From: Nemertoderma westbladi
Lineage: Eukaryota > Animalia > Xenacoelomorpha
DNA length: 45,341 nucleotides
Direction of reading: 5' to 3'
Assembly (NCBI GenBank): GCA_032718475.1
Contig: JAUCBJ010005132.1
Coordinates: forward strand, 1 to 45,341
Position numbers and translations under genes: made by a program. Under the pieces are notes generated by a model. The model searched no databases, was not told the DNA's origin, and saw nothing but the letters and a program-made list of their open reading frames with translations. Below are positions 2,555 to 44,439 of this stretch, in pieces (within the stretch, counting starts at the first letter, position 1; each line of letters opens with the position of its first letter).

Positions 2555-2616
2555 CAACGAATGTCGTTTGGCGTTGGGGAATTAATATTTGTTGTTCTTC
2601 GACGGATTGTTGGCTT
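2555..2616 (-). CDS. Candidate short C-terminal exon of the same gene
   Basis: Strong splice signals (cattttttttcAG ... TG|GTGAGT), 62 nt. Two frames are open (KPTIRRRTTNINSPTPNDIR or SQQSVEEQQILIPQRQTTFV). Phase not resolved and no recognisable homology. Confidence 0.45.
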
Positions 2617-6969: not shown

Positions 6970-7175
6970 CTGACTTATAAATAATAAATAAGTTCGCCAT
7001 TTACTGCGCTCGGGTTGTAGTTTCAACCAGGGCACCAAGTATTTGTAGGCGACGAATTCGGCAATAAGGCACAATATAGCGATGAGGAGACCACATGCGA
7101 AGAATATGTAAATACCGATAGCGTGTTTGAGACCGAGACCCTGCTGTTTGTTTTGGAAAATATTGTCGGCGCACC
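6970..7175 (-). CDS. GRIN3: Exon encoding the conserved S2 Cys, M4 transmembrane helix and proximal C-tail of GluN3-like receptor
   Basis: Acceptor atttactttcAG, donor CAG|GTGAAT, 206 nt (phase 1 to 0). Translates (G)CADNIFQNKQQGLGLKHAIGIYIFFACGLLIAILCLIAEFVAYKYLVPWLKLQPERSKWRTYLLFISQ; compare GluN3A MGIKHFSGLFVLLCIG...GEHIVYRLLLP...WLHTSQ. Confidence 0.92.
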
Positions 7176-19400: not shown

Positions 19401-22400
19401 CTCTCTAACCCTTGCACTCTCTAACCCTTGTACTCTCTAACCCTTGTACTCTCTAACCCTTGTACTCTCTAACCCTTGTACTCTCTAACCCTTGTACTCT
19501 CTAACCCTTGTACTCCCTAACCCTTGTACTCTCTAACCCTTGTACTATCTAACCCTTGTACTCCCTAACCCTTGCTCTCTCTAACCCTTGTACTCCCTAA
19601 CCCTTGTACTCTCTAACCCTTGTACTATCTAACCCTTGTACTCCCTAACCCTTGCTCTCTCTAACCCTTGTACTCCCTAACCCTTGTACTCTCTAACCCT
19701 TGTACTGTCTAACCCTTGTACTATCTAACCCTTGTACTCCCTAACCCTTGCTCTCTCTAACCCTTGTACTCTCTAACCCTTGCTCTCTCTAACCCTTGTA
19801 CTCCCTAACCCTTGTACTCTCTAACCCTTGTACTATCTAACCCTTGTACTCTCTAACCCTTGTACTCTCTAACCCTTGCACTCTCTAACCCTTGTACTCT
19901 CTAACCCTTGTACTCTCTAACCCTTGTACTCTCTAACCCTTGTACTCTCTAACCCTTGTACTCTCTAACCCTTGTACTCTCTAACCCTTGTACTCTCTAA
20001 CCCTTGTACTCCCTAACCCTTGTACTCTCTAACCCTTGTACTATCTAACCCTTGTACTCCCTAACCCTTGCTCTCTCTAACCCTTGTACTCCCTAACCCT
20101 TGTACTCTCTAACCCTTGTACTATCTAACCCTTGTACTCCCTAACCCTTGCTCTCTCTAACCCTTGTACTCCCTAACCCTTGTACTCTCTAACCCTTGTA
20201 CTGTCTAACCCTTGTACTATCTAACCCTTGTACTCCCTAACCCTTGCTCTCTCTAACCCTTGTACTCTCTAACCCTTGCTCTCTCTAACCCTTGTACTCC
20301 CTAACCCTTGTACTCTCTAACCCTTGTACTATCTAACCCTTGTACTCCCTAACCCTTGTACTCTCTAACCCTTGTACTCCCTAACCCTTGTACTCTCTAA
20401 CCCTTGTACTCTCTAACCCTTGTACTCTCTAACCCTTGCACTCTCTAACCTTTGTACTCCCTAACCCCTGTACTCTCTAAACCTTGTACTCTCTAACCCT
20501 TGTACTCCCTAACCCTTGCTCTCTCTAACCCTTGTACTCCCTAACCCTTGTACTCTCTAACCCTTGTACTATCTAACCCTTGTACTCCCTAACCCTTGCT
20601 CTCTCTAACCCTTGTACTCCCTAACCCTTGTACTCTCTAACCCTTGTACTATCTAACCCTTGTACTCCCTAACCCTTGCTCTCTCTAACCCTTGTACTCC
20701 CTAACCATTGTACTCTCTAACCCTTGTACTGTCTAACCCTTGTACTATCTAACCCTTGTACTCCCTAACCCTTGCTCTCTCTAACCCTTGTACTCTCTAA
20801 CCCTTGCTCTCTCTAACCCTTGTACTCCCTAACCCTTGTACTCTCTAACCCTTGTACTATCTAACCCTTGTACTCCCTAACCCTTGTACTCTCTAACCCT
20901 TGTACTCCCTAACCCTTGTACTCTCTAACCCTTGTACTCTCTAACCCTTGTACTCTCTAACCCTTGCTCTCTCTAACCCTTGTACTCCCTAACCCTTGTA
21001 CTCTCTAACCCTTGTACTCTCTAACCCTTGTACTCTCTAACCCTTGCACTCTCTAACCTTTGTACTCCCTAACCCCTGTACTCTCTAAACCTTGTACTCT
21101 CTAACCCTTGTACTCTCTAACCCTTGTACTCTCTAACCCTTGTACTCTCTAACCCTTGCACTCTCTAACCCTTGTACTCTCTAACCCTTGTAATATCTAA
21201 CCCCTGTACTCTCTAACCCTTGTACTCTCTAACCCTTGCACTCTCTAAACCTTGTACTCTCTAACCCTTGTACTCTCTAACCCTTGTACTCTCTAACCCT
21301 TGTACTCTCTAAGCCTTGTACTCCCTAACCCTTGCTCTCTCTAACCCTTGTACTCCCTAACCCCTGTACTCTCTAAACCTTGTACTCTCTAACCCTTGTA
21401 CTCTCTAACCCTTGTACTCTCTAACCCTTGTACTCTCTAACCCTTGTACTCTCTAAGCCTTGTACTCTTTAACCCTTGTACTCTCTAACCCTTGTACTCT
21501 CTAACCCTTGTACTCTCTAAACCTTGTACTCTCTAACCCTTGTACTATCTAACCCTTGTACTCCCTAACCCTTGCTCTCTCTAACCCTTGTACTCCCTAA
21601 CCCCTGTACTCTCTAAACCTTGTACTCTCTAACCCTTGTACTCTCTAACCCTTGTACTCTCTAACCCTTGTACTCTCTAACCCTTGTACTCTCTAACCCT
21701 TGTACTCTCTAACCCTTGTACTCTCTAAACCTTGTACTCTCTAACCCTTGTACTATCTAACCCTTGTACTCCCTAACCCTTGCTCTCTCTAACCCTTGTA
21801 CTCCCTAACCCCTGTACTCTCTAAACCTTGTACTCTCTAACCCTTGTACTCTCTAACCCTTGTACTCTCTAACCCTTGCACTCTCTAACCCTTGTACTCT
21901 CTAACCCTTGTACTCTCTAAGCCTTGTACTCCCTAACCCTTGCTCTCTCTAACCCTTGGTCTCCCTAACCCCTGTACTCTCTAACCCTTGTACTCCCTAA
22001 CCCCTGTACTCTCTAAACCTTGTACTCTCTAACCCTTGTACTCTCTAACCCTTGTACTCTCTAACCCTTGTACTATCTAACCCTTGTACTCTCTAAGCCT
22101 TGTACTCTCTAACCCTTGTACTCTCTAACCCTTGTACTCTCTAACCCTTGTACTCTCTAAACCTTGTACTCTCTAACCCTTGTACTATCTAACCCTTGTA
22201 CTCCCTAACCCTTGCTCTCTCTAACCCTTGTACTCTCTAACCCTTGTACTCTCTAAGCCTTGTACTCTCTAACCCTTGTACTCTCTAACCCTTGTACTCT
22301 CTAACCCTTGTACTCTCTAAACCTTGTACTCTCTAACCCTTGTACTATCTAACCCTTGTACTCCCTAACCCTTGCTCTCTCTAACCCTTGTACTCCCTAA

Positions 22401-25400
22401 CCCCTGTACTCTCTAAACCTTGTACTCCCTAACCCCTGTACTCTCTAAACCTTGTACTCTCTAACCCTTGTACTCTCTAACCCTTGTACTCTCTAACCCT
22501 TGTACTCTCTAACCCTTGTACTCTCTAAGCCTTGTACTCTCTAACCCTTGTACTCTCTAACCCTTGTACTCTCTAACCCTTGTACTCTCTAAACCTTGTA
22601 CTCTCTAACCCTTGTACTATCTAACCCTTGTACTCCCTAACCCTTGCTCTCTCTAACCCTTGTACTCTCTAACCCTTGTACTCTCTAACCCTTGTACTCT
22701 CTAACCCTTGCACTCTCTAACCCTTGTACTCTCTAACCCTTGTACTCTCTAACCCTTGTACTCTCTAACCCTTGTACTCTCTAACCCTTGTACTCTCTAA
22801 CCCTTGTACTCCCTAACCCTTGTACTCTCTAACCCTTGTACTATCTAACCCTTGTACTCCCTAACCCTTGCTCTCTCTAACCCTTGTACTCCCTAACCCT
22901 TGTACTCTCTAACCCTTGTACTATCTAACCCTTGTACTCCCTAACCCTTGCTCTCTCTAACCCTTGTACTCCCTAACCCTTGTACTCTCTAACCCTTGTA
23001 CTGTCTAACCCTTGTACTATCTAACCCTTGTACTCCCTAACCCTTGCTCTCTCTAACCCTTGTACTCTCTAACCCTTGCTCTCTCTAACCCTTGTACTCC
23101 CTAACCCTTGTACTCTCTAACCCTTGTACTATCTAACCCTTGTACTCTCTAACCCTTGTACTCTCTAACCCTTGCACTCTCTAACCCTTGTACTCTCTAA
23201 CCCTTGTACTCTCTAACCCTTGTACTCTCTAACCCTTGTACTCTCTAACCCTTGTACTCTCTAACCCTTGTACTCTCTAACCCTTGTACTCTCTAACCCT
23301 TGTACTCCCTAACCCTTGTACTCTCTAACCCTTGTACTATCTAACCCTTGTACTCCCTAACCCTTGCTCTCTCTAACCCTTGTACTCCCTAACCCTTGTA
23401 CTCTCTAACCCTTGTACTATCTAACCCTTGTACTCCCTAACCCTTGCTCTCTCTAACCCTTGTACTCCCTAACCCTTGTACTCTCTAACCCTTGTACTGT
23501 CTAACCCTTGTACTATCTAACCCTTGTACTCCCTAACCCTTGCTCTCTCTAACCCTTGTACTCTCTAACCCTTGCTCTCTCTAACCCTTGTACTCCCTAA
23601 CCCTTGTACTCTCTAACCCTTGTACTATCTAACCCTTGTACTCCCTAACCCTTGTACTCTCTAACCCTTGTACTCCCTAACCCTTGTACTCTCTAACCCT
23701 TGTACTCTCTAACCCTTGTACTCTCTAACCCTTGCACTCTCTAACCTTTGTACTCCCTAACCCCTGTACTCTCTAAACCTTGTACTCTCTAACCCTTGTA
23801 CTCCCTAACCCTTGCTCTCTCTAACCCTTGTACTCCCTAACCCTTGTACTCTCTAACCCTTGTACTATCTAACCCTTGTACTCCCTAACCCTTGCTCTCT
23901 CTAACCCTTGTACTCCCTAACCCTTGTACTCTCTAACCCTTGTACTATCTAACCCTTGTACTCCCTAACCCTTGCTCTCTCTAACCCTTGTACTCCCTAA
24001 CCATTGTACTCTCTAACCCTTGTACTGTCTAACCCTTGTACTATCTAACCCTTGTACTCCCTAACCCTTGCTCTCTCTAACCCTTGTACTCTCTAACCCT
24101 TGCTCTCTCTAACCCTTGTACTCCCTAACCCTTGTACTCTCTAACCCTTGTACTATCTAACCCTTGTACTCCCTAACCCTTGTACTCTCTAACCCTTGTA
24201 CTCCCTAACCCTTGTACTCTCTAACCCTTGTACTCTCTAACCCTTGTACTCTCTAACCCTTGCTCTCTCTAACCCTTGTACTCCCTAACCCTTGTACTCT
24301 CTAACCCTTGTACTCTCTAACCCTTGTACTCTCTAACCCTTGCACTCTCTAACCTTTGTACTCCCTAACCCCTGTACTCTCTAAACCTTGTACTCTCTAA
24401 CCCTTGTACTCTCTAACCCTTGTACTCTCTAACCCTTGTACTCTCTAACCCTTGCACTCTCTAACCCTTGTACTCTCTAACCCTTGTAATATCTAACCCC
24501 TGTACTCTCTAACCCTTGTACTCTCTAACCCTTGCACTCTCTAAACCTTGTACTCTCTAACCCTTGTACTCTCTAACCCTTGTACTCTCTAACCCTTGTA
24601 CTCTCTAAGCCTTGTACTCCCTAACCCTTGCTCTCTCTAACCCTTGTACTCCCTAACCCCTGTACTCTCTAAACCTTGTACTCTCTAACCCTTGTACTCT
24701 CTAACCCTTGTACTCTCTAACCCTTGTACTCTCTAACCCTTGTACTCTCTAAGCCTTGTACTCTTTAACCCTTGTACTCTCTAACCCTTGTACTCTCTAA
24801 CCCTTGTACTCTCTAAACCTTGTACTCTCTAACCCTTGTACTATCTAACCCTTGTACTCCCTAACCCTTGCTCTCTCTAACCCTTGTACTCCCTAACCCC
24901 TGTACTCTCTAAACCTTGTACTCTCTAACCCTTGTACTCTCTAACCCTTGTACTCTCTAACCCTTGTACTCTCTAACCCTTGTACTCTCTAACCCTTGTA
25001 CTCTCTAACCCTTGTACTCTCTAAACCTTGTACTCTCTAACCCTTGTACTATCTAACCCTTGTACTCCCTAACCCTTGCTCTCTCTAACCCTTGTACTCC
25101 CTAACCCCTGTACTCTCTAAACCTTGTACTCTCTAACCCTTGTACTCTCTAACCCTTGTACTCTCTAACCCTTGCACTCTCTAACCCTTGTACTCTCTAA
25201 CCCTTGTACTCTCTAAGCCTTGTACTCCCTAACCCTTGCTCTCTCTAACCCTTGGTCTCCCTAACCCCTGTACTCTCTAACCCTTGTACTCCCTAACCCC
25301 TGTACTCTCTAAACCTTGTACTCTCTAACCCTTGTACTCTCTAACCCTTGTACTCTCTAACCCTTGTACTATCTAACCCTTGTACTCTCTAAGCCTTGTA

Positions 25401-28400
25401 CTCTCTAACCCTTGTACTCTCTAACCCTTGTACTCTCTAACCCTTGTACTCTCTAAACCTTGTACTCTCTAACCCTTGTACTATCTAACCCTTGTACTCC
25501 CTAACCCTTGCTCTCTCTAACCCTTGTACTCTCTAACCCTTGTACTCTCTAAGCCTTGTACTCTCTAACCCTTGTACTCTCTAACCCTTGTACTCTCTAA
25601 CCCTTGTACTCTCTAAACCTTGTACTCTCTAACCCTTGTACTATCTAACCCTTGTACTCCCTAACCCTTGCTCTCTCTAACCCTTGTACTCCCTAACCCC
25701 TGTACTCTCTAAACCTTGTACTCTCTAACCCTTGTACTCTCTAACCCTTGTACTCTCTAACCCTTGTACTCTCTAACCCTTGTACTCTCTAACCCTTGTA
25801 CTCTCTAACCCTTGTACTCTCTAACCCTTGTACTCTCTAACCCTTGTACTCTCTAACCCTTGTACTCTCTAACCCTTGTACTATCTAACCCTTGTACTCC
25901 CTAACCCTTGCTCTCTCTAACCCTTGCCCTAACCCTTGCTCTCTCTAACCCTTGTACTCCCTAACCCTTGCTCTCTCTAACCCTTGTACTCTCTAACCCT
26001 TGTACTCTCTAACCCTTGCACTCTCTAACCCTTGCACTCTCTAACCCTTGTACTCTCTAAACCTTGTACTCTCTAACCCTTGTACTCCCTAACCCTTGCT
26101 CTCTCTAACCCTTGTACTATCTAACCCTTGTACTCTCTAACCCTTGTACTCTCTAACCCTTGTACTCCCTAACCCTTGTACTATCTAACCCTTGTACTCC
26201 CTAACCCTTGCTCTCTCTAACCCTTGTACTCCCTAACCCTTGCTCTCTCTAACCCTTGTACTCCCTAACCCTTGCTCTCTCTAACCCTTGTACTCTCTAA
26301 CCCTTGTACTCTCTAACCCTTGCACTCTCTAACCCTTGCACTCTCTAACCCTTGTACTCTCTAAACCTTGTACTCTCTAACCCTTGTACTCTCTAACCCT
26401 TGTACTCTCTAAACCTTGTACTCTCTAACCCTTGTACTCCCTAACCCTCGGTCTCTCTAACCCTTGTACTCTCTAAACCTTGTACTCTCTAACCCTTGTA
26501 CTCCCTAACCCTTGCTCTCTCTAACCCTTGTACTATCTAACCCTTGTACTCTCTAACCCTTGTACTCTCTAACCCTTGCACTCTCTAACCCTTGTACTCT
26601 CTAACCCTTGTACTCTCTAACCCTTGTACTCTCTAACCCTTGTACTCCCTAACCCTTGTACTCTCTAACCCTTGTACTCTCTAACCCTTGCACTCTCTAA
26701 CCCTTGTACTCCCTAACCCTTGTACTCTCTAACCCTTGTACTCTCTAACCCTTGTACTCTCTAACCCTTGTACTCTCTAACCCTTGTACTCTCTAACCCT
26801 TGTACTCCCTAACCCTTGTACTCTCTAACCCTTGTACTCTCTAACCCTTGTACTCTCTAACCCTTGTACTCTCTAACCCTTGTATTCTCTAACCCTTGTA
26901 CTCTCTAACCCTTGTACTCTCTAACCCTTGTACTCTCTAACCCTTGTACTCTCTAACCCTTGTACTCTCTAACCCTTGTACTCTCTAACCCTTGCACTAT
27001 CTAACCCTTGCACTATCTAACCCTTGTACTCTCTAACCCTTGTACTCTCTAACCCTTGTACTCTCTAACCCTTGTACTCCCTAACCCTTGTACTCTCTAA
27101 CCCTTGTACTCTCTAACCCTTGTACTCTCTAACCCTTGTATTCTCTAACCCTTGTACTCTCTAACCCTTGTACTCTCTAACCCTTGTACTCTCTAACCCT
27201 TGTACTCTCTAACCCTTGTACTCTCTAACCCTTGTACTCTCTACACCTTGTACTCTCTAACCCTTGTACTCTCTAACCCTTGTACTCTCTAACCCTTGTA
27301 CTCTCTAACCCTTGTACTCTCTAACCCTTGTACTCTCTAACCCTTGTACTCTCTAACCCTTGTACTCTCTAACCCTTGCTCTCTCTAACCCTTGCTCTCT
27401 CTAACCCTTGCTCTCTCTAACCCTTGTACTCTCTAACCCTTGTACTCTCTAACCCTTGCACTCTCTAACCCTTGTACTCCCTAACCCCTGTACTCTCTAA
27501 ACCTTGTACTCTCTAACCCTTGTACTCTCTAACCCTTGTACTCTCTAACCCTTGTACTCTCTAACCCTTGTACTCTCTAACCCTTGTACTCTCTAACCCT
27601 TGTACTCTCTAACCCTTGTACTCTCTAACCCTTGTACTCTCTAACCCTTGTACTCTCTAACCCTTGTACTCTCTAACCCTTGTACTATCTAACCCTTGTA
27701 CTCCCTAACCCTTGCTCTCTCTAACCCTTGTACTCCCTAACCCTTGCTCTCTCTAACCCTTGTACTCCCTAACCCTTGCTCTCTCTAACCCTTGTACTCT
27801 CTAACCCTTGTACTCTCTAACCCTTGCACTCTCTAACCCTTGCACTCTCTAACCCTTGTACTCTCTAAACCTTGTACTCTCTAACCCTTGTACTCTCTAA
27901 CCCTTGTACTCTCTAACCCTTGTACTCTCTAACCCTTGTACTCCCTAACCCTTGTACTCTCTAACCCTTGTACTCTCTAACCCGTGCACTCTCTAACCCT
28001 TGTACTCCCTAACCCTTGTACTCTCTAACCCTTGCTCTCTCTAACCCTTGTACTCTCTAACCCTTGTACTCTCTAACCCTTGTACTCTCTAACCCTTGTA
28101 CTCTCTAACCCTTGTACTCTCTAACACTTGTACTCTCTAACCCTTGTATTCTCTAACTATCTAAGCCTCGCATTCTCTAACCCTTGTACTCTCTAACCCT
28201 TGCACTCTCTAACCCTTGTACTCCCTAACCCTTGTACTCACTAACCCTTGTACTCTCTAACCCTTGTACTCTCTAACCCTTGTACTCTCTAACCCTTGTA
28301 CTCTCTAACCCTTGTACTCTCTAACCCTTGTACTCTCTAACCCTTGTACTCTCTAACCCTTGTACTCTCTAACCCTTGTACTCTCTAACCCTTGTACTCC

Positions 28401-31400
28401 CTAACCCTTGTACTCTCTAACCCTTGTACTCTCTAACCCTTGTACTCTCTAACCCTTGTACTCTCTAACCCTTGTATTCTCTAACCCTTGTACTCTCTAA
28501 CCCTTGTACTCTCTAACCCTTGTACTCTCTAACCCTTGTACTCTCTAACCCTTGCACTCTCTAACCCTTGCACTATCTAACCCCTGTACTCTCTAACCCT
28601 TGCACTCTCTAACCCTTGTACTCTCTAACCCTTGCACTATCTAACCCTTGCACTATCTAACCCTTGCACTATCTAACCATTGCTCTCTCTAACCCTTGTA
28701 CTCTCTAACCCTTGTACTCCCTAACCCTTGTACTCCCTAACCCTTGTACTCTCTAACCCTTGCTCTCTCTAACCCTTGTACTCTCTAACCCTTGTACTCT
28801 CTAACCCTTGCACTCTCTAACCATTGCACTCTCTAACCCTTGTACTCTCTAACCCTTGTACTCTCTAACCCTTGTACTCTCTAACCCTTGTACTCTCTAA
28901 CCCTTGTACTCTCTAACCCTTGTACTCTCTAACCCTTGTACTCTCTAACCCTTGTACTCTCTAACCCTTGTACTCTCTAACCCTTGCACTCTCTAACCCT
29001 TGCACTCTCTAACCCTTACTCTCTCTAACCCTTGTACTCTCTAACCCTTGCACTCTCTAAACCTTGTACTCTCTAAACCTTGTACTCTCTAACCCTTGCA
29101 CTCTCTAACCCTTGCTCTCTCTAACCCTTGTACTCTCTAACCCTTGTACTCTCTAACCCTTGTACTCTCTAACCCTTGTACTCTCTAACCCTTGTACTCT
29201 CTAACCCTTGTACTCTCTAACCCTTGTACTCTCTAACCCTTGTATTCTCTAACCCTTGTACTCTCTAACCCTTGTACTCTCTAACCCTTGTATTCTCTAA
29301 CCCTTGTACTCTCTAACCCTTGTACTCTCTAACCCTTGTAATCTCTAACCCCTGTACTCTCTAACCCTTGTACTCTCTAACCCTTGTAATATCTAACCCC
29401 TGTACTCTCTAACACTTGTACTCTCTAACCCTTGTACTCTCTAACCCTCGCATTCTCTAACCCTTGTACTCTCTAACCCTTGTACTCTCTAACCCTTGCA
29501 CACTCTAACCCTTGTACTCTCTAACCCTTGTACTCTCTAACTCTCGCACTATCTAACCCTTGCTCTCTCTAACCCTTGCACTCTCTAACTCTTTCTCTCT
29601 CTAACCCTTGCACTCTCTAACCCTTGTACTATCTAACCCTTGTACTCTCTAACCCTTGTACTCTCTAACCCTTGTAATCTCTAACCCCTGTACTCTCTAA
29701 CCCTTGTACTCTCTAACCCTTGCTCTCTCTAACCCTTGTACTCTCTAACCCTTGTACTCTCTAACCCTTGTACTCTCTAGCCCTTGTACTCTCTAACCCT
29801 TGTACTCTCTAACCCTTGTACTCTCTAACCCTTGTACTATCTAACCCTTGTACTCTCTAACCCTTGTACTCTCTAACCCTTGTACTCTCTAACCCTTGTA
29901 ATCTCTAACCCCTGTACTCTCTAACCCTTGCACACTCTAACCCCTGTACTCTCTAACCCTTGTACTCTCTAACTCTCGCACTATCTAACCCTTGCTCTCT
30001 CTAACCCTTGCACTCTCTAACTCTTGCTCTCTCTAACCCTTGTACTCTCTAACCCTTGTACTCTCTAACCCTTGCTCTCTCTAACCCTTGTACTCTCTAA
30101 CCCTTGTACTCTCTAACCCTTGCTCTCTCTAACCCTTGTACTCTCTAACCCTTGTACTCTCTGACCCTTGTATTCTCTGACCCTTGTACTCTCTAACCCT
30201 TGCTATCTCTAACCCTTGTACTCTCTAACCCTTGTACTTTCTAACCCTTGTACTCTCTAACCCTTGTACTTTCTAACCCTTGTACTCTCTAACCCTTGCA
30301 CTCTCTAAACCTTGTACTCTCTAACCGTTGTACTCTCTAACCATTGTACTCTCTAACCCTTGTACTCTCTAACCCTTGTACTCTCTAACCCTTGTAATCT
30401 CTAACCCCTGTACTCTCTAACCCTTGTACTCTCTAACTCTCGCACTATCTAACCCTTGCTCTCTCTAACCCTTGTACTCTCTAACCCTTGTACTCTCTAA
30501 CCCTTGCTCTCTCTAACCCTTGTACTCTCTAACCCTTGTACTCTCTAACCCTTGTACTCTCTAACCCTTGTACTCTCTAACCCTTGTACTCTCTAACCCT
30601 TGTACTCTCTAACCCTTGTACTCTCTAACCCTTGCACTCTCTAACCGTTGCACTATCTAACCCTTGCATTCTCTAACCCCTGTACTCTCTAACCCTTGTA
30701 CTCTCTAACTCTCGCACTATCTAACCCTTGCTCTCTCTAACCCTTGTACTCTCTAAGCCTTGTACTCTCTAACCCTTGTACTCTCTAACCCTTGTACTCT
30801 CTAACCCTTGTATTCTCTAACCCTTGTACTCTCTAACCCTTGTACTCTCTAACCCTTGTATTCTCTAACCCTTGTACTCTCTAACCCTTGTACTCTCTAA
30901 CCCTTGTAATCTCTAACCCCTGTACTCTCTAACCCTTGTACTCTCTAACCCTTGTAATATCTAACCCCTGTACTCTCTAACACTTGTACTCTCTAACCCT
31001 TGTACTCTCTAACCCTCGCATTCTCTAACCCTTGTACTCTCTAACCCTTGTACTCTCTAACCCTTGCACACTCTAACCCTTGTACTCTCTAACCCTTGTA
31101 CTCTCTAACTCTCGCACTATCTAACCCTTGCTCTCTCTAACCCTTGCACTCTCTAACTCTTTCTCTCTCTAACCCTTGCACTCTCTAACCCTTGTACTAT
31201 CTAAGCCTTGTACTCTCTAACCCTTGTACTCTCTAACCCTTGTACTCTCTAACCCTTGTACTCTCTAACCCTTGTAATCTCTAACCCCTGTACTCTCTAA
31301 CCCTTGTACTCTCTAACCCTTGCTCTCTCTAACCCTTGTACTCTCTAACCCTTGTACTCTCTAACCCTTGTACTCTCTAGCCCTTGTACTCTCTAACCCT

Positions 31401-34400
31401 TGTACTCTCTAACCCTTGTACTCTCTAACCCTTGTACTATCTAACCCTTGTACTCTCTAACCCTTGTACTCTCTAACCCTTGTACTCTCTAACCCTTGTA
31501 ATCTCTAACCCCTGTACTCTCTAACCCTTGCACACTCTAACCCCTGTACTCTCTAACCCTTGTACTCTCTAACTCTCGCACTATCTAACCCTTGCTCTCT
31601 CTAACCCTTGCACTCTCTAACTCTTGCTCTCTCTAACCCTTGTACTCTCTAACCCTTGTACTCTCTAACCCTTGCTCTCTCTAACCCTTGTACTCTCTAA
31701 CCCTTGTACTCTCTAACCCTTGCTCTCTCTAACCCTTGTACTCTCTAACCCTTGTACTCTCTGACCCTTGTATTCTCTGACCCTTGTACTCTCTAACCCT
31801 TGCTATCTCTAACCCTTGTACTCTCTAACCCTTGTACTTTCTAACCCTTGTACTCTCTAACCCTTGTACTTTCTAACCCTTGTACTCTCTAACCCTTGCA
31901 CTCTCTAAACCTTGTACTCTCTAACCGTTGTACTCTCTAACCATTGTACTCTCTAACCCTTGTACTCTCTAACCCTTGTACTCTCTAACCCTTGTAATCT
32001 CTAACCCCTGTACTCTCTAACCCTTGTACTCTCTAACTCTCGCACTATCTAACCCTTGCTCTCTCTAACCCTTGTACTCTCTAACCCTTGTACTCTCTAA
32101 CCCTTGCTCTCTCTAACCCTTGTACTCTCTAACCCTTGTACTCTCTAACCCTTGTACTCTCTAACCCTTGTACTCTCTAACCCTTGTACTCTCTAACCCT
32201 TGTACTCTCTAACCCTTGTACTCTCTAACCCTTGCACTCTCTAACCGTTGCACTATCTAACCCTTGCATTCTCTAACCCTTGTACTCTCTAACCCTTGTA
32301 CTATCTAACCCTTGTACTCCCTAACCCCTGTACTCTCTAACCCTTGTATTCTCTAACTCTTGTACTCTCTAACCCTTGTACTCTCTAACCCTTGTACTCT
32401 CTAACCCTTGTACTCTCTAACCCTTGCATTCTCTAACCCTTGTACTATCTAACACTTATACTATCTAACCCTCGCATTCTCTAACCTTTGTACTATCTAA
32501 CCCTTGTACTCTCTAACCCTTGTACTCTCTAACCCTTGTACTCTCTAACCCTTGTACTCTCTAACCCTTGTGCTCTCTAACCCTTGTACTCTCTAACCCT
32601 TGTACTCTCTAACCCTTGTACTCTCTAACCCTTGTACTCTCTAACCCTTGTACTCTCTAACCCTTGTACTCTCTAACCCTTGCACTCTCTAAACCTTGTA
32701 CTCTCTAACCCTTGCACTCTCTAACCATTGTACTCTCTAACCCTTGTACTCTCTAACCCTTGTACTCTCTAACCCTTGTACTCTCTAACCCTTGTACTCT
32801 CTAACCCTTGCACTCTCTAACCCTTGCACTATCTAAACCTTGTACTCTCTAACCCTTGTACTCTCTAACCCTTGTACTCTCTAACCCTTGTATTCTCTAA
32901 CCCTTGTACTCTCTAACCCTTGTACTATCTAACCCTTGTACTCCCTAACCCCTGTACTCTCTAACCCTTGTATTCTCTAACTCTTGTACTCTCTAACCCT
33001 TGTACTCTCTAACCCTTGTACTCTCTAACCCTTGTACTCTCTAACCCTTGTACTCTCTAACCCTTGTATTCTCTAACCTTTGTACTCTCTAACCCTTGTA
33101 CTCTCTAACCCTTGTACTCTCTAACCCTTGTACTCTCTAACCCTTGTACTCTCTAACCCTTGCACTCTCTAACCCTTGCACTCTCTAACCCTTGTACTCT
33201 CTAACCCTTGCTCTCTCTAACCCTTGCACTCTCTAACCCTTGCACTATCTAAACCTTGCACTCTCTAACCCTTGTACTATCTAACCCTTGTACTCCCTAA
33301 CCCCTGTACTCTCTAACCCTTGTATTCTCTAACCCTTGTACTCTCTAACCCTTGTACTCTCTAACCCTTGTACTCTCTAACCCTTGTACTCTCTAACCGT
33401 TGCACTATCTAACCCTTGCACTATCTAAACCTTGCACTCTCTAACCCTTGTACTCTCTAACCCTTGTACTCTCTAACCCTTGTACTCTCTAACCCTTGTA
33501 CTCTCTAACCCTTGTACTCTCTAACCCTTGTACTCTCTAACCCTTGTACTCTCTAACCCTTGTACTCTCTAACCCTCGTACTCCCTAACCCTTGCATTCT
33601 CTAACCCTTGTACTATCTAACCCTTATACTATCTAACCCTCGCATTCTCTAACCTGTGTACTATCTAACCCTTGTACTCCCTAACCCCTGTACTCTCTAA
33701 CCCTTGTACTCTCTAACCCTTGTACTCTCTAACCCTTGTACTCCCTAACCCTTGCATTCTCTAACCCTTGTACTATCTAACCCTTATACTATCTAACCCT
33801 CGCATTCTCTAACCTGTGTACTATCTAACCCTTGTACTCCCTAACCCCTGTACTCTCTAACCCTTGTACTCTCTAACCCTTGTACTCTCTAACCCTCGTA
33901 CTCCCTAACCCTTGCATTCTCTAACCCTTGTACTCTCTAACCCTTGTACTCTCTAACCCTTGTATTCTCTAACCTTTGTACTCTCTAACCCTTGTACTCT
34001 CTAACCCTTGTACTCTCTAACCCTTGTACTCTCTAACCCTTGTACTCTCTAACCCTTGCACTCTCTAACCCTTGCACTCTCTAACCCTTGTACTCTCTAA
34101 CCCTTGCTCTCTCTAACCCTTGCACTCTCTAACCCTTGCACTATCTAAACCTTGCACTCTCTAACCCTTGTACTATCTAACCCTTGTACTCCCTAACCCC
34201 TGTACTCTCTAACCCTTGTATTCTCTAACCCTTGTACTCTCTAACCCTTGTACTCTCTAACCCTTGTACTCTCTAAACCTTGTACTCTCTAACCGTTGCA
34301 CTATCTAACCCTTGCACTATCTAAACCTTGCACTCTCTAACCCTTGTACTCTCTAACCCTTGTACTCTCTAACCCTTGTACTCTCTAACCCTTGTACTCT

Positions 34401-36533
34401 CTAACCCTTGTACTCTCTAACCGTTGTACTCTCTAACCCTTGTACTCTCTAACCCTTGTACTCTCTAACCCTTGTACTCCCTAACCCTTGCATTCTCTAA
34501 CCCTTGTACTATCTAACCCTTATACTATCTAACCCTCGCATTCTCTAACCTGTGTACTATCTAACCCTTGTACTCCCTAACCCCTGTACTCTCTAACCCT
34601 TGTACTCTCTAACCCTTGTACTTTCTAACCCTTGTACTCTCTAACCCTTGCACTCTCTAAACCTTGTACTCTCTAACCGTTGTACTCTCTAACCATTGTA
34701 CTCTCTAACCCTTGTACTCTCTAACCCTTGTACTCTCTAACCCTTGTAATCTCTAACCCCTGTACTCTCTAACCCTTGTACTCTCTAACTCTCGCACTAT
34801 CTAACCCTTGCTCTCTCTAACCCTTGTACTCTCTAACCCTTGTACTCTCTAACCCTTGCTCTCTCTAACCCTTGTACTCTCTAACCCTTGTACTCTCTAA
34901 CCCTTGTACTCTCTAACCCTTGTACTCTCTAACCCTTGTACTCTCTAACCCTTGTACTCTCTAACCCTTGTACTCTCTAACCCTTGCACTCTCTAACCGT
35001 TGCACTATCTAACCCTTGCATTCTCTAACCCTTGTACTCTCTAACCCTTGTACTATCTAACCCTTGTACTCCCTAACCCCTGTACTCTCTAACCCTTGTA
35101 TTCTCTAACTCTTGTACTCTCTAACCCTTGTACTCTCTAACCCTTGTACTCTCTAACCCTTGTACTCTCTAACCCTTGCATTCTCTAACCCTTGTACTAT
35201 CTAACACTTATACTATCTAACCCTCGCATTCTCTAACCTTTGTACTATCTAACCCTTGTACTCTCTAACCCTTGTACTCTCTAACCCTTGTACTCTCTAA
35301 CCCTTGTACTCTCTAACCCTTGTGCTCTCTAACCCTTGTACTCTCTAACCCTTGTACTCTCTAACCCTTGTACTCTCTAACCCTTGTACTCTCTAACCCT
35401 TGTACTCTCTAACCCTTGTACTCTCTAACCCTTGCACTCTCTAAACCTTGTACTCTCTAACCCTTGCACTCTCTAACCATTGTACTCTCTAACCCTTGTA
35501 CTCTCTAACCCTTGTACTCTCTAACCCTTGTACTCTCTAACCCTTGTACTCTCTAACCCTTGCACTCTCTAACCCTTGCACTATCTAAACCTTGTACTCT
35601 CTAACCCTTGTACTCTCTAACCCTTGTACTCTCTAACCTTTGTATTCTCTAACCCTTGTACTCTCTAACCCTTGTACTATCTAACCCTTGTACTCCCTAA
35701 CCCCTGTACTCTCTAACCCTTGTATTCTCTAACTCTTGTACTCTCTAACCCTTGTACTCTCTAACCCTTGTACTCTCTAACCCTTGTACTCTCTAACCCT
35801 TGTACTCTCTAACCCTTGTATTCTCTAACCTTTGTACTCTCTAACCCTTGTACTCTCTAACCCTTGTACTCTCTAACCCTTGTACTCTCTAACCCTTGTA
35901 CTCTCTAACCCTTGCACTCTCTAACCCTTGCACTCTCTAACCCTTGTACTCTCTAACCCTTGCTCTCTCTAACCCTTGCACTCTCTAACCCTTGCACTAT
36001 CTAAACCTTGCACTCTCTAACCCTTGTACTATCTAACCCTTGTACTCCCTAACCCCTGTACTCTCTAACCCTTGTATTCTCTAACCCTTGTACTCTCTAA
36101 CCCTTGTACTCTCTAACCCTTGTACTCTCTAACCCTTGTACTCTCTAACCGTTGCACTATCTAACCCTTGCACTATCTAAACCTTGCACTCTCTAACCCT
36201 TGTACTCTCTAACCCTTGTACTCTCTAACCCTTGTACTCTCTAACCCTTGTACTCTCTAACCCTTGTACTCTCTAACCCTTGTACTCTCTAACCCTTGTA
36301 CTCTCTAACCCTTGTACTCTCTAACCCTCGTACTCCCTAACCCTTGCATTCTCTAACCCTTGTACTATCTAACCCTTATACTATCTAACCCTCGCATTCT
36401 CTAACCTGTGTACTATCTAACCCTTGTACTCCCTAACCCCTGTACTCTCTAACCCTTGTACTCTCTAACCCTTGTACTCTCTAACCCTTGTACTCCCTAA
36501 CACTTGCATTCTCTAATCCTTGCACAAACTAAC
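7475..36533. repeat. Intronic 16-bp satellite (CTAACCCTTGTACTCT)n, ~29 kb, ~1800 units
   Basis: Directly visible 16-bp periodicity with point variants and rare indels. Ends exactly at the splice donor of exon 36650-36534. Confidence 0.99.
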
Positions 36534-36650
36534 CTTTGGGCGAGGAGCTGCGGAACCATTTATCCTGCAACTGTTCGAATTCAACACCGCTCGTATAATT
36601 ATGTATCAGTTTGGAGAGAACGTCCTTTAGGTTGGAACCTTTTGGAACGC
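36534..36650 (-). CDS. GRIN3: Internal exon of GluN3-like receptor (end of S2 domain)
   Basis: Acceptor ttttgattttAG, donor AAAG|GTTAGT, 117 nt (phase 1 to 1), in frame with both neighbours. Translates (G)VPKGSNLKDVLSKLIHNYTSGVEFEQLQDKWFRSSSPK(G), a typical iGluR 'P.GS.L...S..I.......L..KW' segment. Confidence 0.92.
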
Positions 36651-37188: not shown

Positions 37189-37971
37189 TCACACAAGACA
37201 TGTCATGGGCTGTCCACCATGCTTATTCACTCCATGAGGCTGCCAAAGTACAAGATTATGCACTGGCTGGTCCTCACGGCGAAAGCAATGTCCTGCAAAG
37301 CGGAGGCGATTTTGTTCTAGTGTCAAGCTTGGGGGAACCAATGAGACACCTCCAATGTTATATAGTGTCTGGTTGGAGATGTGTGCATTGTACTTGACAC
37401 AATGAACCCGGCGTAGCATTCTTGTGAATGTGCCATCCAGAGATTTGGTGTCCTCAGCAGTTAGAGCCCAGCATGGACTCCCATAGAGGAGTACTGGAAC
37501 TACTGCTGCTCTAAATAACCGGACCTTAAGTTTCCGATTAATTCTCGGTGACTTCCAAATCCTGGAAAGCCTATTCAAGGCTGCCCATGCCTTTCCCTTA
37601 CGTATTCGAAGGTCCTCACCTGACTTCTGGATCCATGATCCCAGGTAACAGAAGTCATCCACATGCTCAAGCATACCATCTTTGGAGCGTATGCTCATCC
37701 GATCAGAGACTTGCTGAGGACTTTCAAAGTTAACTGTCAAAATTTTGATCTTTCTGGAGTTAATAAAAAGACCAACACTAGAAGCAGCATGTTCTAATGA
37801 GCTGAGGAGCCGTTGGGCTCCCTCTAGTGATTCTGAGAGTACTTCTAAGTCATCAGCAAAGTCTAGATCAGTTAGGTACTTGGCAGGATTTCCTCGACTT
37901 CTGGAGCCAGTAGGTGGAGTTATCATCACCCCATCATCATTGTGATGATCTAAGGACATGCGTAGAACATA
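37189..37971 (-). pseudogene. C-terminal part of LINE reverse transcriptase (motif 5 onward)
   Basis: YVLRMSLD...YLTDLDFADDL...DFCYLGSWI...LFRAAVVPVLLYGS..W...RLRFAGHCFR. Upstream RT motifs are absent. Confidence 0.88.
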
Positions 37972-38373
37972 GCATCATTGATGGCATCAACCTGTTGGTT
38001 TATTAGCTCCTGGAGATTAACAGAGTACTGCCTATTCAGGGACCTAGATGCAGCCTTAACTGCATTCTTGGCCGCTGTAGTCTGTTTGAGTCGGGACTCT
38101 TTCTGCGCCTTATAAAGGTCATTTCGGCACTTCTGAATTTTGTTGTCAGTCCAGGGGGCCCTTTTCCTGTTTCGAGGGTATACGGGAACTGTATCTGCAG
38201 CTGCTAACTTAACTGCTTCTGTGAAGGCAGTATAGCCCTCACAGTGATCTGCCGCCTCAGAGGCAAGAACCTCATACCTGTTGCTCAGCTGTAGTGTGAA
38301 GCTGGATCTCACCCTTGGCTGTTGCAACAGAGAGGACCAGTCATGCCGCGGCAAGGCAGATTTCGTTGTTCTG

Positions 38374-39150
38374 CTAGCACGCAGACTTAAGTCTTACCTT
38401 GGCCACAATAAGGCGGTGATCACTGGAGAAGGGTCGAAGTGTAAATGCATTACAGTCTTGTATAGAGCTCCTGTATTTCCTATGAAACAGAATATGGTCT
38501 ATCTGGGACTTGTGACCACTGGGTCCACTATGAGTCCATACCTTTCCAGTTCGCATCTTGAACTGGGTTCCAGCCGAAAACAATCCATTTCCAGAGATAA
38601 AATCCTGAAGAATGACGGAATTTCGGTTAACACTATTGCTATTAACCCAGGGCGATGTAGGTGATTGATGCAGACTTGCATTAAAGTCTCCCAGGAATGT
38701 TAAGAATGCATGCTGATCCACTCCATCAGTAGCTGCTTGTAGATTATGGTAGAAATTTTCCACCTCCTCTACAGGGGCAACACTAGTTGGAGAGTAGCAC
38801 ACAATCAGAACCACCTTAGGAAACTTCTTAGCCAGTCTTCCAGAACATGAGAAGTGACAACGGATGATGCGGTTAGAGATTTGGTCTATTTTGTCCAATG
38901 CTGCATGTGCAGTTGGATTCATCAAAAGACCAATTCCACCATTGCCACTATCATCTGCTGAAGCGAGGGCGAGTCGCCAACCGCACCCCATGTCCTTAAT
39001 CAGAACCTCATCAGTCTGTCCAGTCTGCATTCGGTGCTCTTGAACACCCACTGCGCTAATTAAGAGAAAGCTTATCTGCCAAGGCAGTCAGCTCACCTTG
39101 TCGCATTGGGGACCCGAGTGTTAGGGTGTTTACTGAGGCTAGTCTAGTGA
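38374..39150 (-). pseudogene. Apurinic-like (APE) endonuclease domain of the LINE, disrupted
   Basis: ASVNTLTL ... stop ... GVQEHR ... GDFNA ... IDH ... SDH. A stop at ~39056 and a frameshift at ~38375 break the frame. Confidence 0.85.
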
Positions 39151-40338: not shown

Positions 40339-41033
40339 GGTTCAGTTTGACTTACCCAATGGTTCAGTTTGATTCACCTAATGGTTCAGTTTTACTCTCA
40401 CAATGGTTCAGTTTCACTCACACATTGGTTCAGTTTGACTCACACATTGGTTCGGTTTCACTCAACTAATGGTTCAGTTTGAATCACACCTTGGTTCAGT
40501 TTACTAACCCAATGGTTCAGTTTGACTCACACATTGGTTCAGTTTGACTCACACATTGGTACAGTTTGACTCACACATTGGTTCAGTTTCAATCAACTAA
40601 TAGTTCATTTTGAATCACACGGTTCAGTTTGACTTACACATTGGTTCAGTTTGACTCACACATTGGTTCAGTTTGACTCACACATTAGTTCAGTTTGACT
40701 CAACTAATGGTTGAGTTTGACTCCCACAGTGGTTCAGTTTGACTCACACAATGGTTCAGTTTGACTCATACATTGGTTCAGTTTGACTCACCTATTGGTT
40801 CAGTTTGACTCACACATTGGTTCAGTTTGACTCACCCATTGGTTCAGTTTAACTCACACATTGGTTAAGTTTGACTCACCTAATGCTTCCGTTTGACTCA
40901 ACTAATGGTTCAGTTTGACTTACCTATTGGTTAAGTTTGACTTGAACATTGGTTATGTTTGACTCACACATTCGTTCAGTTTGACTCAGCCATTGGTTCA
41001 GTTTGACTCACCCATTGGTTCAGTTTGACTCAC
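40339..41033. repeat. 22-bp minisatellite (TGGTTCAGTTTGACTCACACAT)n, ~31 diverged units
   Basis: Visible periodicity. On the gene strand the unit is GTGAGTCAAACTGAACCAATG(T/G), starting with the donor motif. Confidence 0.97.
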
Positions 41034-44000
41034 CTATCCCGTAACCCTCACCACCGAACGGCGCACCAACCGAACGTAGAACGCTGACTCACCTATCCCG
41101 TAACCCTCACCACCGAACGGCGCACCAACCGAACGTAGAACGCTGACTCACCTATCCCGTAACCCTCACCACCGAACGGCGCACCAACCGAACGTAGAAC
41201 GCTGACTCACCTATCCCGTAACCCTCACCACCGAACGGCGCACCAACCGAACGTAGAACGCTGACTCACCTATCCCGTAACCCTCACCACCGAACGGCGC
41301 ACCAACCGAACGTAGAACGCTGACTCACCTATCCCGTAACCCTCACCACCGAACGGCGCACCAACCGAACGTAGAACGCTGACTCACCTATCCCGTAACC
41401 CTCACCACCGAACGGCGCACCAACCGAACGTAGAACGCTGACTCACCTATCCCGTAACCCTCACCACCGAACGGCGCACCAACCGAACGTAGAACGCTGA
41501 CTCACCTATCCCGTAACCCTCACCACCGAACGGCGCACCAACCGAACGTAGAACGCTGACTCACCTATCCCGTAACCCTCACCACCGAACGGCGCACCAA
41601 CCGAACGTAGAACGCTGACTCACCTATCCCGTAACCCTCACCACCGAACGGCGCACCAACCGAACGTAGAACGCTGACTCACCTATCCCGTAACCCTCAC
41701 CACCGAACGGCGCACCAACCGAACGTAGAACGCTGACTCACCTATCCCGTAACCCTCACCACCGAACGGCGCACCAACCGAACGTAGAACGCTGACTCAC
41801 CTATCCCGTAACCCTCACCACCGAACGGCGCACCAACCGAACGTAGAACGCTGACTCACCTATCCCGTAACCCTCACCACCGAACGGCGCACCAACCGAA
41901 CGTAGAACGCTGACTCACCTATCCCGTAACCCTCACCACCGAACGGCGCACCAACCGAACGTAGAACGCTGACTCACCTATCCCGTAACCCTCACCACCG
42001 AACGGCGCACCAACCGAACGTAGAACGCTGACTCACCTATCCCGTAACCCTCACCACCGAACGGCGCACCAACCGAACGTAGAACGCTGACTCACCTATC
42101 CCGTAACCCTCACCACCGAACGGCGCACCAACCGAACGTAGAACGCTGACTCACCTATCCCGTAACCCTCACCACCGAACGGCGCACCAACCGAACGTAG
42201 AACGCTGACTCACCTATCCCGTAACCCTCACCACCGAACGGCGCACCAACCGAACGTAGAACGCTGACTCACCTATCCCGTAACCCTCACCACCGAACGG
42301 CGCACCAACCGAACGTAGAACGCTGACTCACCTATCCCGTAACCCTCACCACCGAACGGCGCACCAACCGAACGTAGAACGCTGACTCACCTATCCCGTA
42401 ACCCTCACCACCGAACGGCGCACCAACCGAACGTAGAACGCTGACTCACCTATCCCGTAACCCTCACCACCGAACGGCGCACCAACCGAACGTAGAACGC
42501 TGACTCACCTATCCCGTAACCCTCACCACCGAACGGCGCACCAACCGAACGTAGAACGCTGACTCACCTATCCCGTAACCCTCACCACCGAACGGCGCAC
42601 CAACCGAACGTAGAACGCTGACTCACCTATCCCGTAACCCTCACCACCGAACGGCGCACCAACCGAACGTAGAACGCTGACTCACCTATCCCGTAACCCT
42701 CACCACCGAACGGCGCACCAACCGAACGTAGAACGCTGACTCACCTATCCCGTAACCCTCACCACCGAACGGCGCACCAACCGAACGTAGAACGCTGACT
42801 CACCTATCCCGTAACCCTCACCACCGAACGGCGCACCAACCGAACGTAGAACGCTGACTCACCTATCCCGTAACCCTCACCACCGAACGGCGCACCAACC
42901 GAACGTAGAACGCTGACTCACCTATCCCGTAACCCTCACCACCGAACGGCGCACCAACCGAACGTAGAACGCTGACTCACCTATCCCGTAACCCTCACCA
43001 CCGAACGGCGCACCAACCGAACGTAGAACGCTGACTCACCTATCCCGTAACCCTCACCACCGAACGGCGCACCAACCGAACGTAGAACGCTGACTCACCT
43101 ATCCCGTAACCCTCACCACCGAAGATCCCGTAACCCTCACCACCGAACGGCGCACCAACCGAACGTAGAACGCTGACTCACCTATCCCGTAACCCTCACC
43201 ACCGAACGGCGCACCAACCGAACGTAGAACGCTGACTCACCTATCCCGTAACCCTCACCACCGAACGGCGCACCAACCGAACGTAGAACGCTGACTCACC
43301 TATCCCGTAACCCTCACCACCGAACGGCGCACCAACCGAACGTAGAACGCTGACTCACCTATCCCGTAACCCTCACCACCGAACGGCGCACCAACCGAAC
43401 GTAGAACGCTGACTCACCTATCCCGTAACCCTCACCACCGAACGGCGCACCAACCGAACGTAGAACGCTGACTCACCTATCCCGTAACCCTCACCACCGA
43501 ACGGCGCACCAACCGAACGTAGAACGCTGACTCACCTATCCCGTAACCCTCACCACCGAACGGCGCACCAACCGAACGTAGAACGCTGACTCACCTATCC
43601 CGTAACCCTCACCACCGAACGGCGCACCAACCGAACGTAGAACGCTGACTCACCTATCCCGTAACCCTCACCACCGAACGGCGCACCAACCGAACGTAGA
43701 ACGCTGACTCACCTATCCCGTAACCCTCACCACCGAACGGCGCACCAACCGAACGTAGAACGCTGACTCACCTATCCCGTAACCCTCACCACCGAACGGC
43801 GCACCAACCGAACGTAGAACGCTGACTCACCTATCCCGTAACCCTCACCACCGAACGGCGCACCAACCGAACGTAGAACGCTGACTCACCTATCCCGTAA
43901 CCCTCACCACCGAACGGCGCACCAACCGAACGTAGAACGCTGACTCACCTATCCCGTAACCCTCACCACCGAACGGCGCACCAACCGAACGTAGAACGCT

Positions 44001-44353
44001 GACTCACCTATCCCGTAACCCTCACCACCGAACGGCGCACCAACCGAACGTAGAACGCTGACTCACCTATCCCGTAACCCTCACCACCGAACGGCGCACC
44101 AACCGAACGTAGAACGCTGACTCACCTATCCCGTAACCCTCACCACCGAACGGCGCACCAACCGAACGTAGAACGCTGACTCACCTATCCCGTAACCCTC
44201 ACCACCGAACGGCGCACCAACCGAACGTAGAACGCTGACTCACCTATCCCGTAACCCTCACCACCGAACGGCGCACCAACCGAACGTAGAACGCTGACTC
44301 ACCTATCCCGTAACCCTCACCACCGAACGGCGCACCAACCGAACGTAGAACGC
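41026..44353. repeat. 59-bp tandem array, 56 essentially identical units, made of exon 3' end plus splice donor
   Basis: Unit TGACTCACCTATCCCGTAACCCTCACCACCGAACGGCGCACCAACCGAACGTAGAACGC. 35 units, one unit with a 24-bp internal duplication (43091-43173), then 20 units. The last unit overlaps the real exon. Confidence 0.99.
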
Positions 44354-44439
44354 ACTCGGGATCTGTGGCCACCTCGTGCGTGATTATTGGATTATCGTAT
44401 ATAAACATATCCAACGTGCTTGGATGGCTGTCGTTGCCC
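44303..44439 (-). CDS. GRIN3: Internal exon of an NMDA-type glutamate receptor, GluN3-like (S2 ligand-binding lobe)
   Basis: Acceptor tgtgtttccAG, donor G|GTGAGT, 137 nt (phase 2 to 1). Translates GNDSHPSTLDMFIYDNPIITHEVATDPECVLRSVGAPFGGEGYGI(G), matching from memory GluN3 [38 protein letters not shown]. Confidence 0.92.

What the first reader, a model, noticed from the sequence alone, without database searches (positions are those of the whole stretch)
41026..44353. Coding exon end plus donor amplified 56 times: 55 identical decoy 5' splice sites, all leading to a stop
Seen: the unit is the last 51 nt of the exon (encoding VLRSVGAPFGGEGYGI) plus GTGAGTCA. Reading past the first donor gives IGESAFYVRLVRRSVVRVTG-stop, and the TAG lies just before the second donor. 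Use of any distal donor therefore includes a premature stop. Inference: the spliceosome must pick the first of 56 sequence-identical donors. Otherwise transcripts go to NMD or encode an M4-less receptor, so copy number could tune receptor expression. This is a natural test of exon definition and first-come donor choice.
Basis: partly seen in the sequence, partly recalled or inferred. Interest (0 to 1): 0.82.

Follow-up and report, generated by a model that had tools for sequence, protein, structure and literature searches.

The report
Splice-donor minisatellite in NMDA receptor intron
A 59-base repeat has copied the end of one exon of an animal NMDA-type glutamate receptor gene, splice signal included, 55 more times into the next intron; the repeat is real, but this kind is already known from human and lancelet genes, and the cell likely just uses the first signal.

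Summary
On the minus strand, 56 identical TAG|GTGAGT donors follow a GluN3-like exon: 54 spacings of 59 nt and one of 83 nt. Any donor after the first brings in an in-frame TAG. The array is not an assembly artefact: the unit-to-unit junction appears in DNA contigs of two samples from two studies. Repeat-to-flank depth is about 26x in one and 221x in the other, a hint of length polymorphism. It is a known kind: exon/intron-boundary minisatellites (human F7, CBS, 6-16, LMNB2, PDGF, ABCA7; amphioxus 'mirages'). The proposed minigene test was done on F7 in 2006: the first donor was used exclusively with 1-12 units. In ABCA7, second-donor use was about 2% and independent of length. This scan has noted the same layout in several other animal genomes. 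The stop is expected by chance. A copy-number dial on expression is unsupported, but untested here because no RNA could be laid. What remains interesting: these donors are strong, identical and 59 nt apart, a regime where other experiments favour the downstream site. Two older arrays in this gene (22-mer; 29-kb 16-mer) also start in register at a donor, with weakened copies.

The parts
44303..44439 (-). Exon A (137 nt, phase 2 to phase 1) of a GluN3-like NMDA receptor subunit gene; part of the S2 ligand-binding segment
   Evidence: TTTCCAG acceptor and TAG|GTGAGT donor; best PDB matches GluN3A/3B, E 6.8e-07, versus 0.15 for GluN2
44297..44305 (-). Authentic donor (donor 1), TAG|GTGAGT, 8 of 9 matches to MAG|GTRAGT
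   Evidence: First of the 56 donors and the only one of them that is stop-free; gives 51 residues between the aligned blocks of exons A and C, against 49 in GluN3A chain 8usw_B
41026..44353 (-). 59-nt minisatellite: last 51 exon nt plus first 8 intron nt; 56 donors (1 authentic, 55 copies); 54 of 55 spacings identical
   Evidence: junction and 89-nt loop contigs in runs X1, X2, X3
44244..44246 (-). First in-frame stop (TAG) on read-through; it is positions -3..-1 of donor 2
43099..43181 (-). Single 83-nt variant unit with an internal 24-nt duplication; donor intact
40339..41037 (-). Older 22-nt minisatellite whose first unit is the last 4 exon-derived nt plus 18 intron nt; 31 downstream units, 21 keep GT, 4 keep AG|GT
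37189..39087 (-). Broken non-LTR retrotransposon remnant (endonuclease and partial RT) in the same intron
   Evidence: PF03372 E 1.2e-07, above cut-off; PF00078 E 5.1e-05, below cut-off
36534..36650 (-). Exon B (117 nt, phase 1 to phase 1; skipping it would keep the frame), end of S2
   Evidence: Sequence and frame continuity; alone it has no significant PDB or Pfam match
7475..36538 (-). 29-kb 16-nt satellite (about 1,800 units) whose first in-register unit overlaps the exon B donor AAG|GTTAGT; copies mostly read AGG|GTTAGA
   Evidence: 1706 of 1785 downstream units keep GT in register, 0 of 1785 have the authentic 9-mer
6970..7175 (-). Exon C (206 nt) encoding M4 and the start of the C-terminal tail
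   Evidence: Best PDB match GluN3A 8usw_B residues 888-929, E 0.011, weak on its own
4771..4872 (-). Exon D (102 nt), tentative
   Evidence: Open frame continuing exon C, canonical AG/GT ends; inferred
2555..2616 (-). Exon E (62 nt), tentative
   Evidence: Open frame and canonical ends; inferred

Best explanation
This is a real 59-nt minisatellite built from the end of a GluN3-like exon plus its splice donor; it is likely young, length-variable and close to neutral, with the spliceosome likely using the first donor and the few downstream choices likely removed by nonsense-mediated decay. Shown: the anatomy, the stop, and the junction in two samples' DNA. Inferred: (1) it arose by slippage or unequal exchange; the junction repeats the exon's GAGT before the unit start with a 2-nt offset, and the expansion pushed an older donor-seeded 22-mer array 3.27 kb downstream; (2) it is recent or homogenised, as 54 of 55 spacings are identical; (3) the 137-nt exon is defined from its single acceptor to the first donor met, as in F7; (4) minor leakage to donors 2-3, as in CBS, 6-16 and ABCA7, gives stop-containing transcripts with at least one junction 117 nt or more downstream, at a level largely independent of copy number.
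For: Same anatomy with tested outcomes. F7: exclusive first-donor use with 1-12 units and with downstream sites strengthened to CV 91. LMNB2 and PDGF use only the authentic donor; CBS and 6-16 also use the next two (as cited there). CBS unit is c.1444_1467+7, 16-21 copies. ABCA7 one-unit retention is 2 +/- 1% and not length-dependent. Amphioxus mirages do not disturb splicing. The five exons found form one open frame collinear with GluN3A, and the only exonic difference seen in X1 and X2 is synonymous. The units contain no good acceptor: pyrimidine fraction 0.30 before the unit's TAG against 0.65-0.90 at the five real acceptors, so decoy exons and recursive sites are unlikely. Tandem arrays fill 76% of the window. 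The stop is expected by chance.
Against: No RNA from this locus was seen, so donor use is inferred from mammals and amphioxus. The F7 donor is moderate (CV 74), whereas TAG|GTGAGT matches 8 of 9 consensus positions. In F7, perfect downstream sites took 70-90% of splicing from the weaker first site. Strong duplicated sites 45 nt or more apart splice about 100% to the downstream site in HeLa cells and in vitro (PMC3413131), and 59 nt is in that range. The array is larger (56; perhaps over 100 in X2) than any tested case (F7 up to 12, 6-16 25). The two older arrays in this gene carry mostly weakened donor copies, which would fit selection against strong decoys.
Confidence: 0.72

Rival explanations
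1. Copy-number rheostat: downstream donors compete, so longer arrays send more transcripts to NMD or to M4-less truncated protein and lower receptor level.
For: Donors are strong, identical and 59 nt apart, the regime in which double U1 occupancy favours the downstream site (PMC3413131). Latent donors behind stops can be activated by stress (PMC3510495 abstract). Depth ratios of 26x and 221x hint at wide length variation.
Against: Copy number did not change donor choice in F7 (1-12 units) or second-donor use in ABCA7. Mirages give no aberrant mRNA. The stop needs no special explanation. Nothing suggests adaptation.
Confidence: 0.12
2. ABCA7-like indirect effect: array length does not change donor choice but increases skipping of the next exon. 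Exon B is 117 nt, phase 1 to 1, so skipping would delete 39 residues of S2 in frame and escape NMD.
For: In ABCA7 the length-dependent event was in-frame skipping of the exon after the donor-containing VNTR (3.2-fold between extremes). Exon B is small, frame-preserving and flanked by 7.65-kb and 29.4-kb repeat-filled introns.
Against: One precedent only; no RNA seen here; exon B has an ordinary T-rich acceptor and an 8-of-9 donor.
Confidence: 0.08
3. The expansion cripples the gene: downstream donors win and the allele is a near-null that persists because the subunit is dispensable or redundant in this animal.
For: Downstream preference for strong duplicated donors; a young expansion would leave the coding sequence still intact.
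Against: The array junction is in both samples that cover the locus, from different studies and years, with no frame defect in the exons seen.
Confidence: 0.05
4. Assembly or amplification artefact.
For: Near-perfect identity of the units; no contig bridges the array, so the count of 56 is not independently confirmed; in X2 the unique contig stops at the array edge.
Against: Junction contigs at depth 254 (X1) and 89-nt loop contigs (59+30) at 2013 (X2) and 45 (X3, 'goes back 59'), against flank depth 9-10 in X1 and X2. X1 and X2 differ from the window at 44427, so they are probably not its source haplotype. One variant unit sits inside the array.
Confidence: 0.03

Closest known systems
Human F7 intron 7 37-bp VNTR (Borensztajn et al. 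2006, PMC1557585; seen: abstract, parts 1-3 of 6, Discussion), with the 6-16, CBS, LMNB2 and PDGF cases it cites
   Different: Here the unit is mostly exonic (51 of 59 nt, against 4 of 37), the donor is stronger (TAG|GTGAGT against TGG|GTGGGT), there are 56 copies against 5-9, and the host gene is a GluN3-like gene of an animal not identified here. No RNA data here.
Human CBS intron 13 31-bp VNTR, c.1444_1467+7(16_21) (PMC2630376, passages; splicing outcome as cited in PMC1557585)
   Same: Nearly the same build: last 24 exon nt plus first 7 intron nt, against 51 plus 8 here.
   Different: 15-21 copies with single-base variants; two pseudo-sites are reported in use. The primary paper (Lievers 2001) was not held.
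Amphioxus 'mirages' in Adh3, globin, TnC and PGBD5 genes (PMC3087553, section 16 read; PMC3902484, one passage; Canestro 2002 not held)
   Same: Minisatellite-like tandem duplications of exon/intron boundaries in an invertebrate, units 10-160 bp, unstable in length, found at several loci, reported not to disturb splicing.
   Different: Globin mirages have 3-6 units at 81-100% identity; here 56 nearly perfect units plus a 29-kb array at the next donor. The organism here is not identified.
ABCA7 intron 18 25-bp VNTR (De Roeck et al. 2018, PMC5954066; passages and section 21)
   Same: Each unit starts with a donor; alleles reach several kb; use of donor 2 gives a premature stop and is NMD-sensitive.
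   Different: The unit is essentially intronic. Its length-dependent effect is skipping of the next exon, not decoy use.

Membership tests
Exon/intron-boundary (donor-reiterating) minisatellite, F7/CBS type | Tandem array whose first unit spans an authentic exon/intron boundary | tested here: met
   Unit = last 51 exon nt plus 8 intron nt; exon is GluN3-like and collinear
Exon/intron-boundary (donor-reiterating) minisatellite, F7/CBS type | Donor sequence reiterated identically in the intron | tested here: met
   55 downstream TAG|GTGAGT sites
Exon/intron-boundary (donor-reiterating) minisatellite, F7/CBS type | Variable copy number between individuals | tested here: inconclusive
   Repeat-to-flank contig depth 26x (X1) and 221x (X2) against 56 in the window; the tool warns that depth is no copy number, and copies elsewhere or library bias are not excluded
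Exon/intron-boundary (donor-reiterating) minisatellite, F7/CBS type | Only the first donor, or the first two or three, is used in mRNA | not testable with these tools
   No RNA holder listed; the one RNA-guess run gave no contig on exon A
Amphioxus mirage | Minisatellite-like duplication of an exon/intron boundary, unit within about 10-160 bp | tested here: met
   59-nt, 22-nt and 16-nt units in register with donors; range
Amphioxus mirage | Occurs in a cephalochordate genome | not tested
   Organism names are coded; two homologue searches found nothing
Amphioxus mirage | Somatic or allelic length instability, normal splicing | not testable with these tools
   Only contigs were available; no spanning reads, no RNA
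Recursive splice sites / decoy exons (AG|GT ratchet points; definition recalled) | AG|GT preceded by a polypyrimidine tract so that it can act as acceptor | tested here: not met
   Pyrimidine fraction 0.30 before the unit's TAG (0.30-0.55 for all 4 AGs in the unit) against 0.65-0.90 at 5 real acceptors
NMDA3 (GluN3) class of ionotropic glutamate receptors | S2 and M4 segments closest to GluN3 rather than GluN1 or GluN2 | tested here: met
   Exon A: the 8 best PDB sequences are GluN3A/3B (E 6.8e-07 to 3.4e-06), then GluN2 at E 0.15 or worse; exon C top hit GluN3A, E 0.011
NMDA3 (GluN3) class of ionotropic glutamate receptors | Placement by full-length phylogeny; M2 pore and glycine-binding residues | not testable with these tools
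   The 5' part of the gene lies outside the window and no genome is held

The most novel reading that the evidence does not exclude
This gene records a life cycle of donor-seeded arrays under selection. Tandem repeats nucleate preferentially at 5' splice sites (59-mer and 22-mer at donor A, 29-kb 16-mer at donor B). A newborn array of strong, identical donors spaced more than 45 nt apart leaks to NMD in proportion to its length (tens to hundreds of units between individuals) and acts as an expression allele series for GluN3, until unit variants with weakened donors take over, as in the two older arrays.
Probability: 0.1. Interest if true: 0.6.

Novelty: new member of a known kind. Interest (0 to 1): 0.22.

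Why it matters
As it most likely stands, it adds a large and clean example to a described class and matters mainly as a trap for annotation and read mapping: junction reads with under 52 nt of overhang cannot tell donor 1 from donor n. Its one real use is as an extreme case between two published rules that disagree, first-donor scanning (F7) and downstream preference for strong sites 45 nt or more apart. If length did tune GluN3 level, it would be a natural expression series in a synaptic receptor, but the two closest tested precedents argue against that.

Tried and rejected
No genome is held for the window, so other loci of the genome and other copies of the units could not be searched. No RNA holder listed. 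Run X4 (RNA only by guess, organism B) and runs X5, X6, X7, X8 gave no contig on 44275-44560; these blanks are no evidence on expression or on absence in the other organisms. Only 44275-44560 was laid; the array body, its exit and exon B were not. Homologue searches with exon C and exon A among longer proteins: 13 and 3 candidates, none at E <= 0.001. Pfam on three single exons: no family. Exon B alone: no significant PDB hit. Coding repeat rejected: all six frames of the array hold stops. Recursive-splicing or decoy-exon reading rejected for want of a pyrimidine tract. 'The TAG is a designed safety stop' rejected: 2496 of 2730 hypothetical duplications contain a stop; 2106 of these are forced by a TGA at intron nt 12-14, and among the 624 shorter ones 390 still do (arithmetic on its ranges). 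RNA folding of two units had no shuffle control and is not used. The first 22-mer tabulation lost register after unit 19 and was redone. Papers not held: Lievers 2001, Canestro 2002. A search for recalled human cases (UPF3A, CUL4A) found 0 papers with 4 of 5 terms, so they are not used. PMC10078293 passages gave no directly comparable case. A sequence look-up in earlier findings returned one unrelated bacterial repeat; the place look-up returned none. No supplementary files were read.

Full report
Observation. The gene lies on the minus strand. Exon A (44439-44303, 137 nt) translates to an S2 segment whose eight best PDB matches are GluN3A/3B (E 6.8e-07 to 3.4e-06), with GluN2 at E 0.15 or worse. 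Exon B (36650-36534), exon C (7175-6970, M4; top hit GluN3A, E 0.011) and two tentative exons continue one open frame. Between the aligned blocks of exons A and C the model has 51 residues and GluN3A chain 8usw_B has 49, so donor 1 at 44302 is the right one. NMDA3 is reported as conserved among bilaterians (PMC6307864, passages). The organism was not identified.

The array holds 56 GATAG|GTGAGTCA sites. Of 55 spacings, 54 are one identical 59-nt unit and one is an 83-nt variant. A unit probe gives 56 matches against none in shuffles. Read-through ends at TAG 44246-44244, directly before donor 2. With donor 2 the stop abuts the A/B junction, but the B/C junction is 117 nt further on, so by the 50-55-nt rule (established knowledge, recalled) all downstream choices would be NMD targets.

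Is it real? Eight public runs were listed, none on record as RNA, and all eight were laid on 44275-44560. Three carry the unit junction. X1 has an 80-nt contig across donor 1 into the next unit at depth 254 and a unique exon contig at 9.7. X2, another study and year, has an 89-nt contig (59+30, a closed loop) at 2013 and flank at 9.1. X3, the same sample as X1, has an 89-nt contig that 'goes back 59' and no flank contig. The other five gave nothing. X1 and X2 both differ from the window at 44427, a synonymous change, so they are probably not its source haplotype. Ratios of 26 and 221 bracket the window's 56 and hint at a VNTR, but contig depth is not a copy number and no contig spans the array.

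Is the stop special? No. Of 2730 hypothetical duplications of exon end plus intron start, 2496 contain a stop before the second donor; 390 of 624 do so even when the intron's own early TGA is excluded. With a phase-1 donor ending in TAG, a unit length of 2 modulo 3 brings that TAG into frame. The units are poor acceptors (pyrimidine fraction 0.30 against 0.65-0.90), so they are not decoy exons or recursive sites.

Surroundings. Tandem arrays fill 76% of the window. Two other arrays begin in register at donors. The 22-mer array (41037-40339) starts with the last 4 exon-derived bases plus 18 intron bases; it presumably abutted exon A before the 59-mer expanded. Its 31 downstream units differ from the first unit at 41 of 62 bases at -2/-1 but 57 of 620 elsewhere; 4 of 31 keep AG|GT. 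The 29-kb 16-mer array starts 5 nt inside exon B; 1706 of 1785 units keep GT in register, 1563 match 6 of 9 consensus positions, and none repeats the authentic 9-mer. A crude post-hoc estimate for 2 of 4 array starts covering a donor is 0.0003-0.004. The weakening fits selection against strong decoys, but units are not independent, so this is two events, and the 16-mer has a telomere-like core and could be a dispersed satellite.

Mechanism. Best reading (0.72): a young, unstable, near-neutral array, with exon A defined from its single acceptor to the first donor met and minor leakage cleared by NMD. This step is inferred from precedent, not shown here. Borensztajn et al. (PMC1557585; abstract, parts 1-3 of 6 and Discussion read) describe the class: F7 (5-9 units), LMNB2 and PDGF use only the first donor; CBS and 6-16 also use the next two. 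F7 minigenes with 1-12 units did not change the choice. The CBS unit is 24 exon plus 7 intron nt (PMC2630376, passages). In ABCA7 one-unit retention was 2 +/- 1% and independent of length, while skipping of the next exon rose with length (PMC5954066, passages and section 21). Amphioxus mirages are the invertebrate counterpart and reportedly leave splicing normal (PMC3087553 section 16; PMC3902484 passage).

Against this reading: strong duplicated donors 45 nt or more apart splice almost wholly to the downstream site (PMC3413131, passages), perfect downstream sites took 70-90% in F7, and latent donors behind stops can be switched on by stress (PMC3510495, abstract). The donor here is strong and 59 nt from its twin, and the array is larger than any tested.

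Comparison and verdict. It meets the structural definition of a donor-reiterating exon/intron-boundary minisatellite; length variation is inconclusive and splicing outcome untestable here. Eight earlier notes of this scan describe this or the mirror-image acceptor layout in other animal genomes (unchecked AI notes, seen after I had found the F7 paper). New member of a known kind; interest 0.22.

Noticed in passing
window 7475-36538 (-): A 29-kb, about 1,800-unit 16-nt satellite fills the intron after exon B and starts in register at its donor; copies read AGG|GTTAGA instead of AAG|GTTAGT. It has a telomere-like core (170 isolated TTAGGG hexamers, no runs; motif recalled).
   Followed up: partly
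window 40339-41037 (-): Older 22-nt array seeded at the same donor as the 59-mer; most copies are changed at -2/-1, but 3 of 31 match 8 of 9 consensus positions, one being TAG|GTAAGT at 40923.
   Followed up: yes
window 44740-45341 (-): 43-nt array (14 copies, 97%) in the intron upstream of exon A; 12 units carry CTA|GTGAGT (7 of 9). Its start is outside the window, so whether it too is donor-seeded is unknown.
   Followed up: partly
window 37189-39087 (-): Broken non-LTR retrotransposon remnant (endonuclease, partial RT). Run X4 of another organism label holds 0.25 of the words of 36534-44740 but none of exon A; it may share this element, which was not tested.
   Followed up: partly
window 44348-44353 and 36645-36650 (-): The duplicated exon segment and exon B both begin with GCGTTC, so the unit junction looks like the spliced A/B junction with 8 intron bases left in; probably chance.
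   Followed up: no
window 36679-36921: Perfect (GGAC)n microsatellite, about 61 copies, ending 28 nt before the exon B acceptor.
   Followed up: no
window 44303-44325 (-): Two weaker GT sites inside exon A lie in frame 12 and 18 nt upstream of donor 1 (AGG|GTTACG, GTG|GTGAGG) and are copied in every unit.
   Followed up: no
window 3512-4112: Diverged 146/304-nt repeat in the intron between tentative exons D and E.
   Followed up: no
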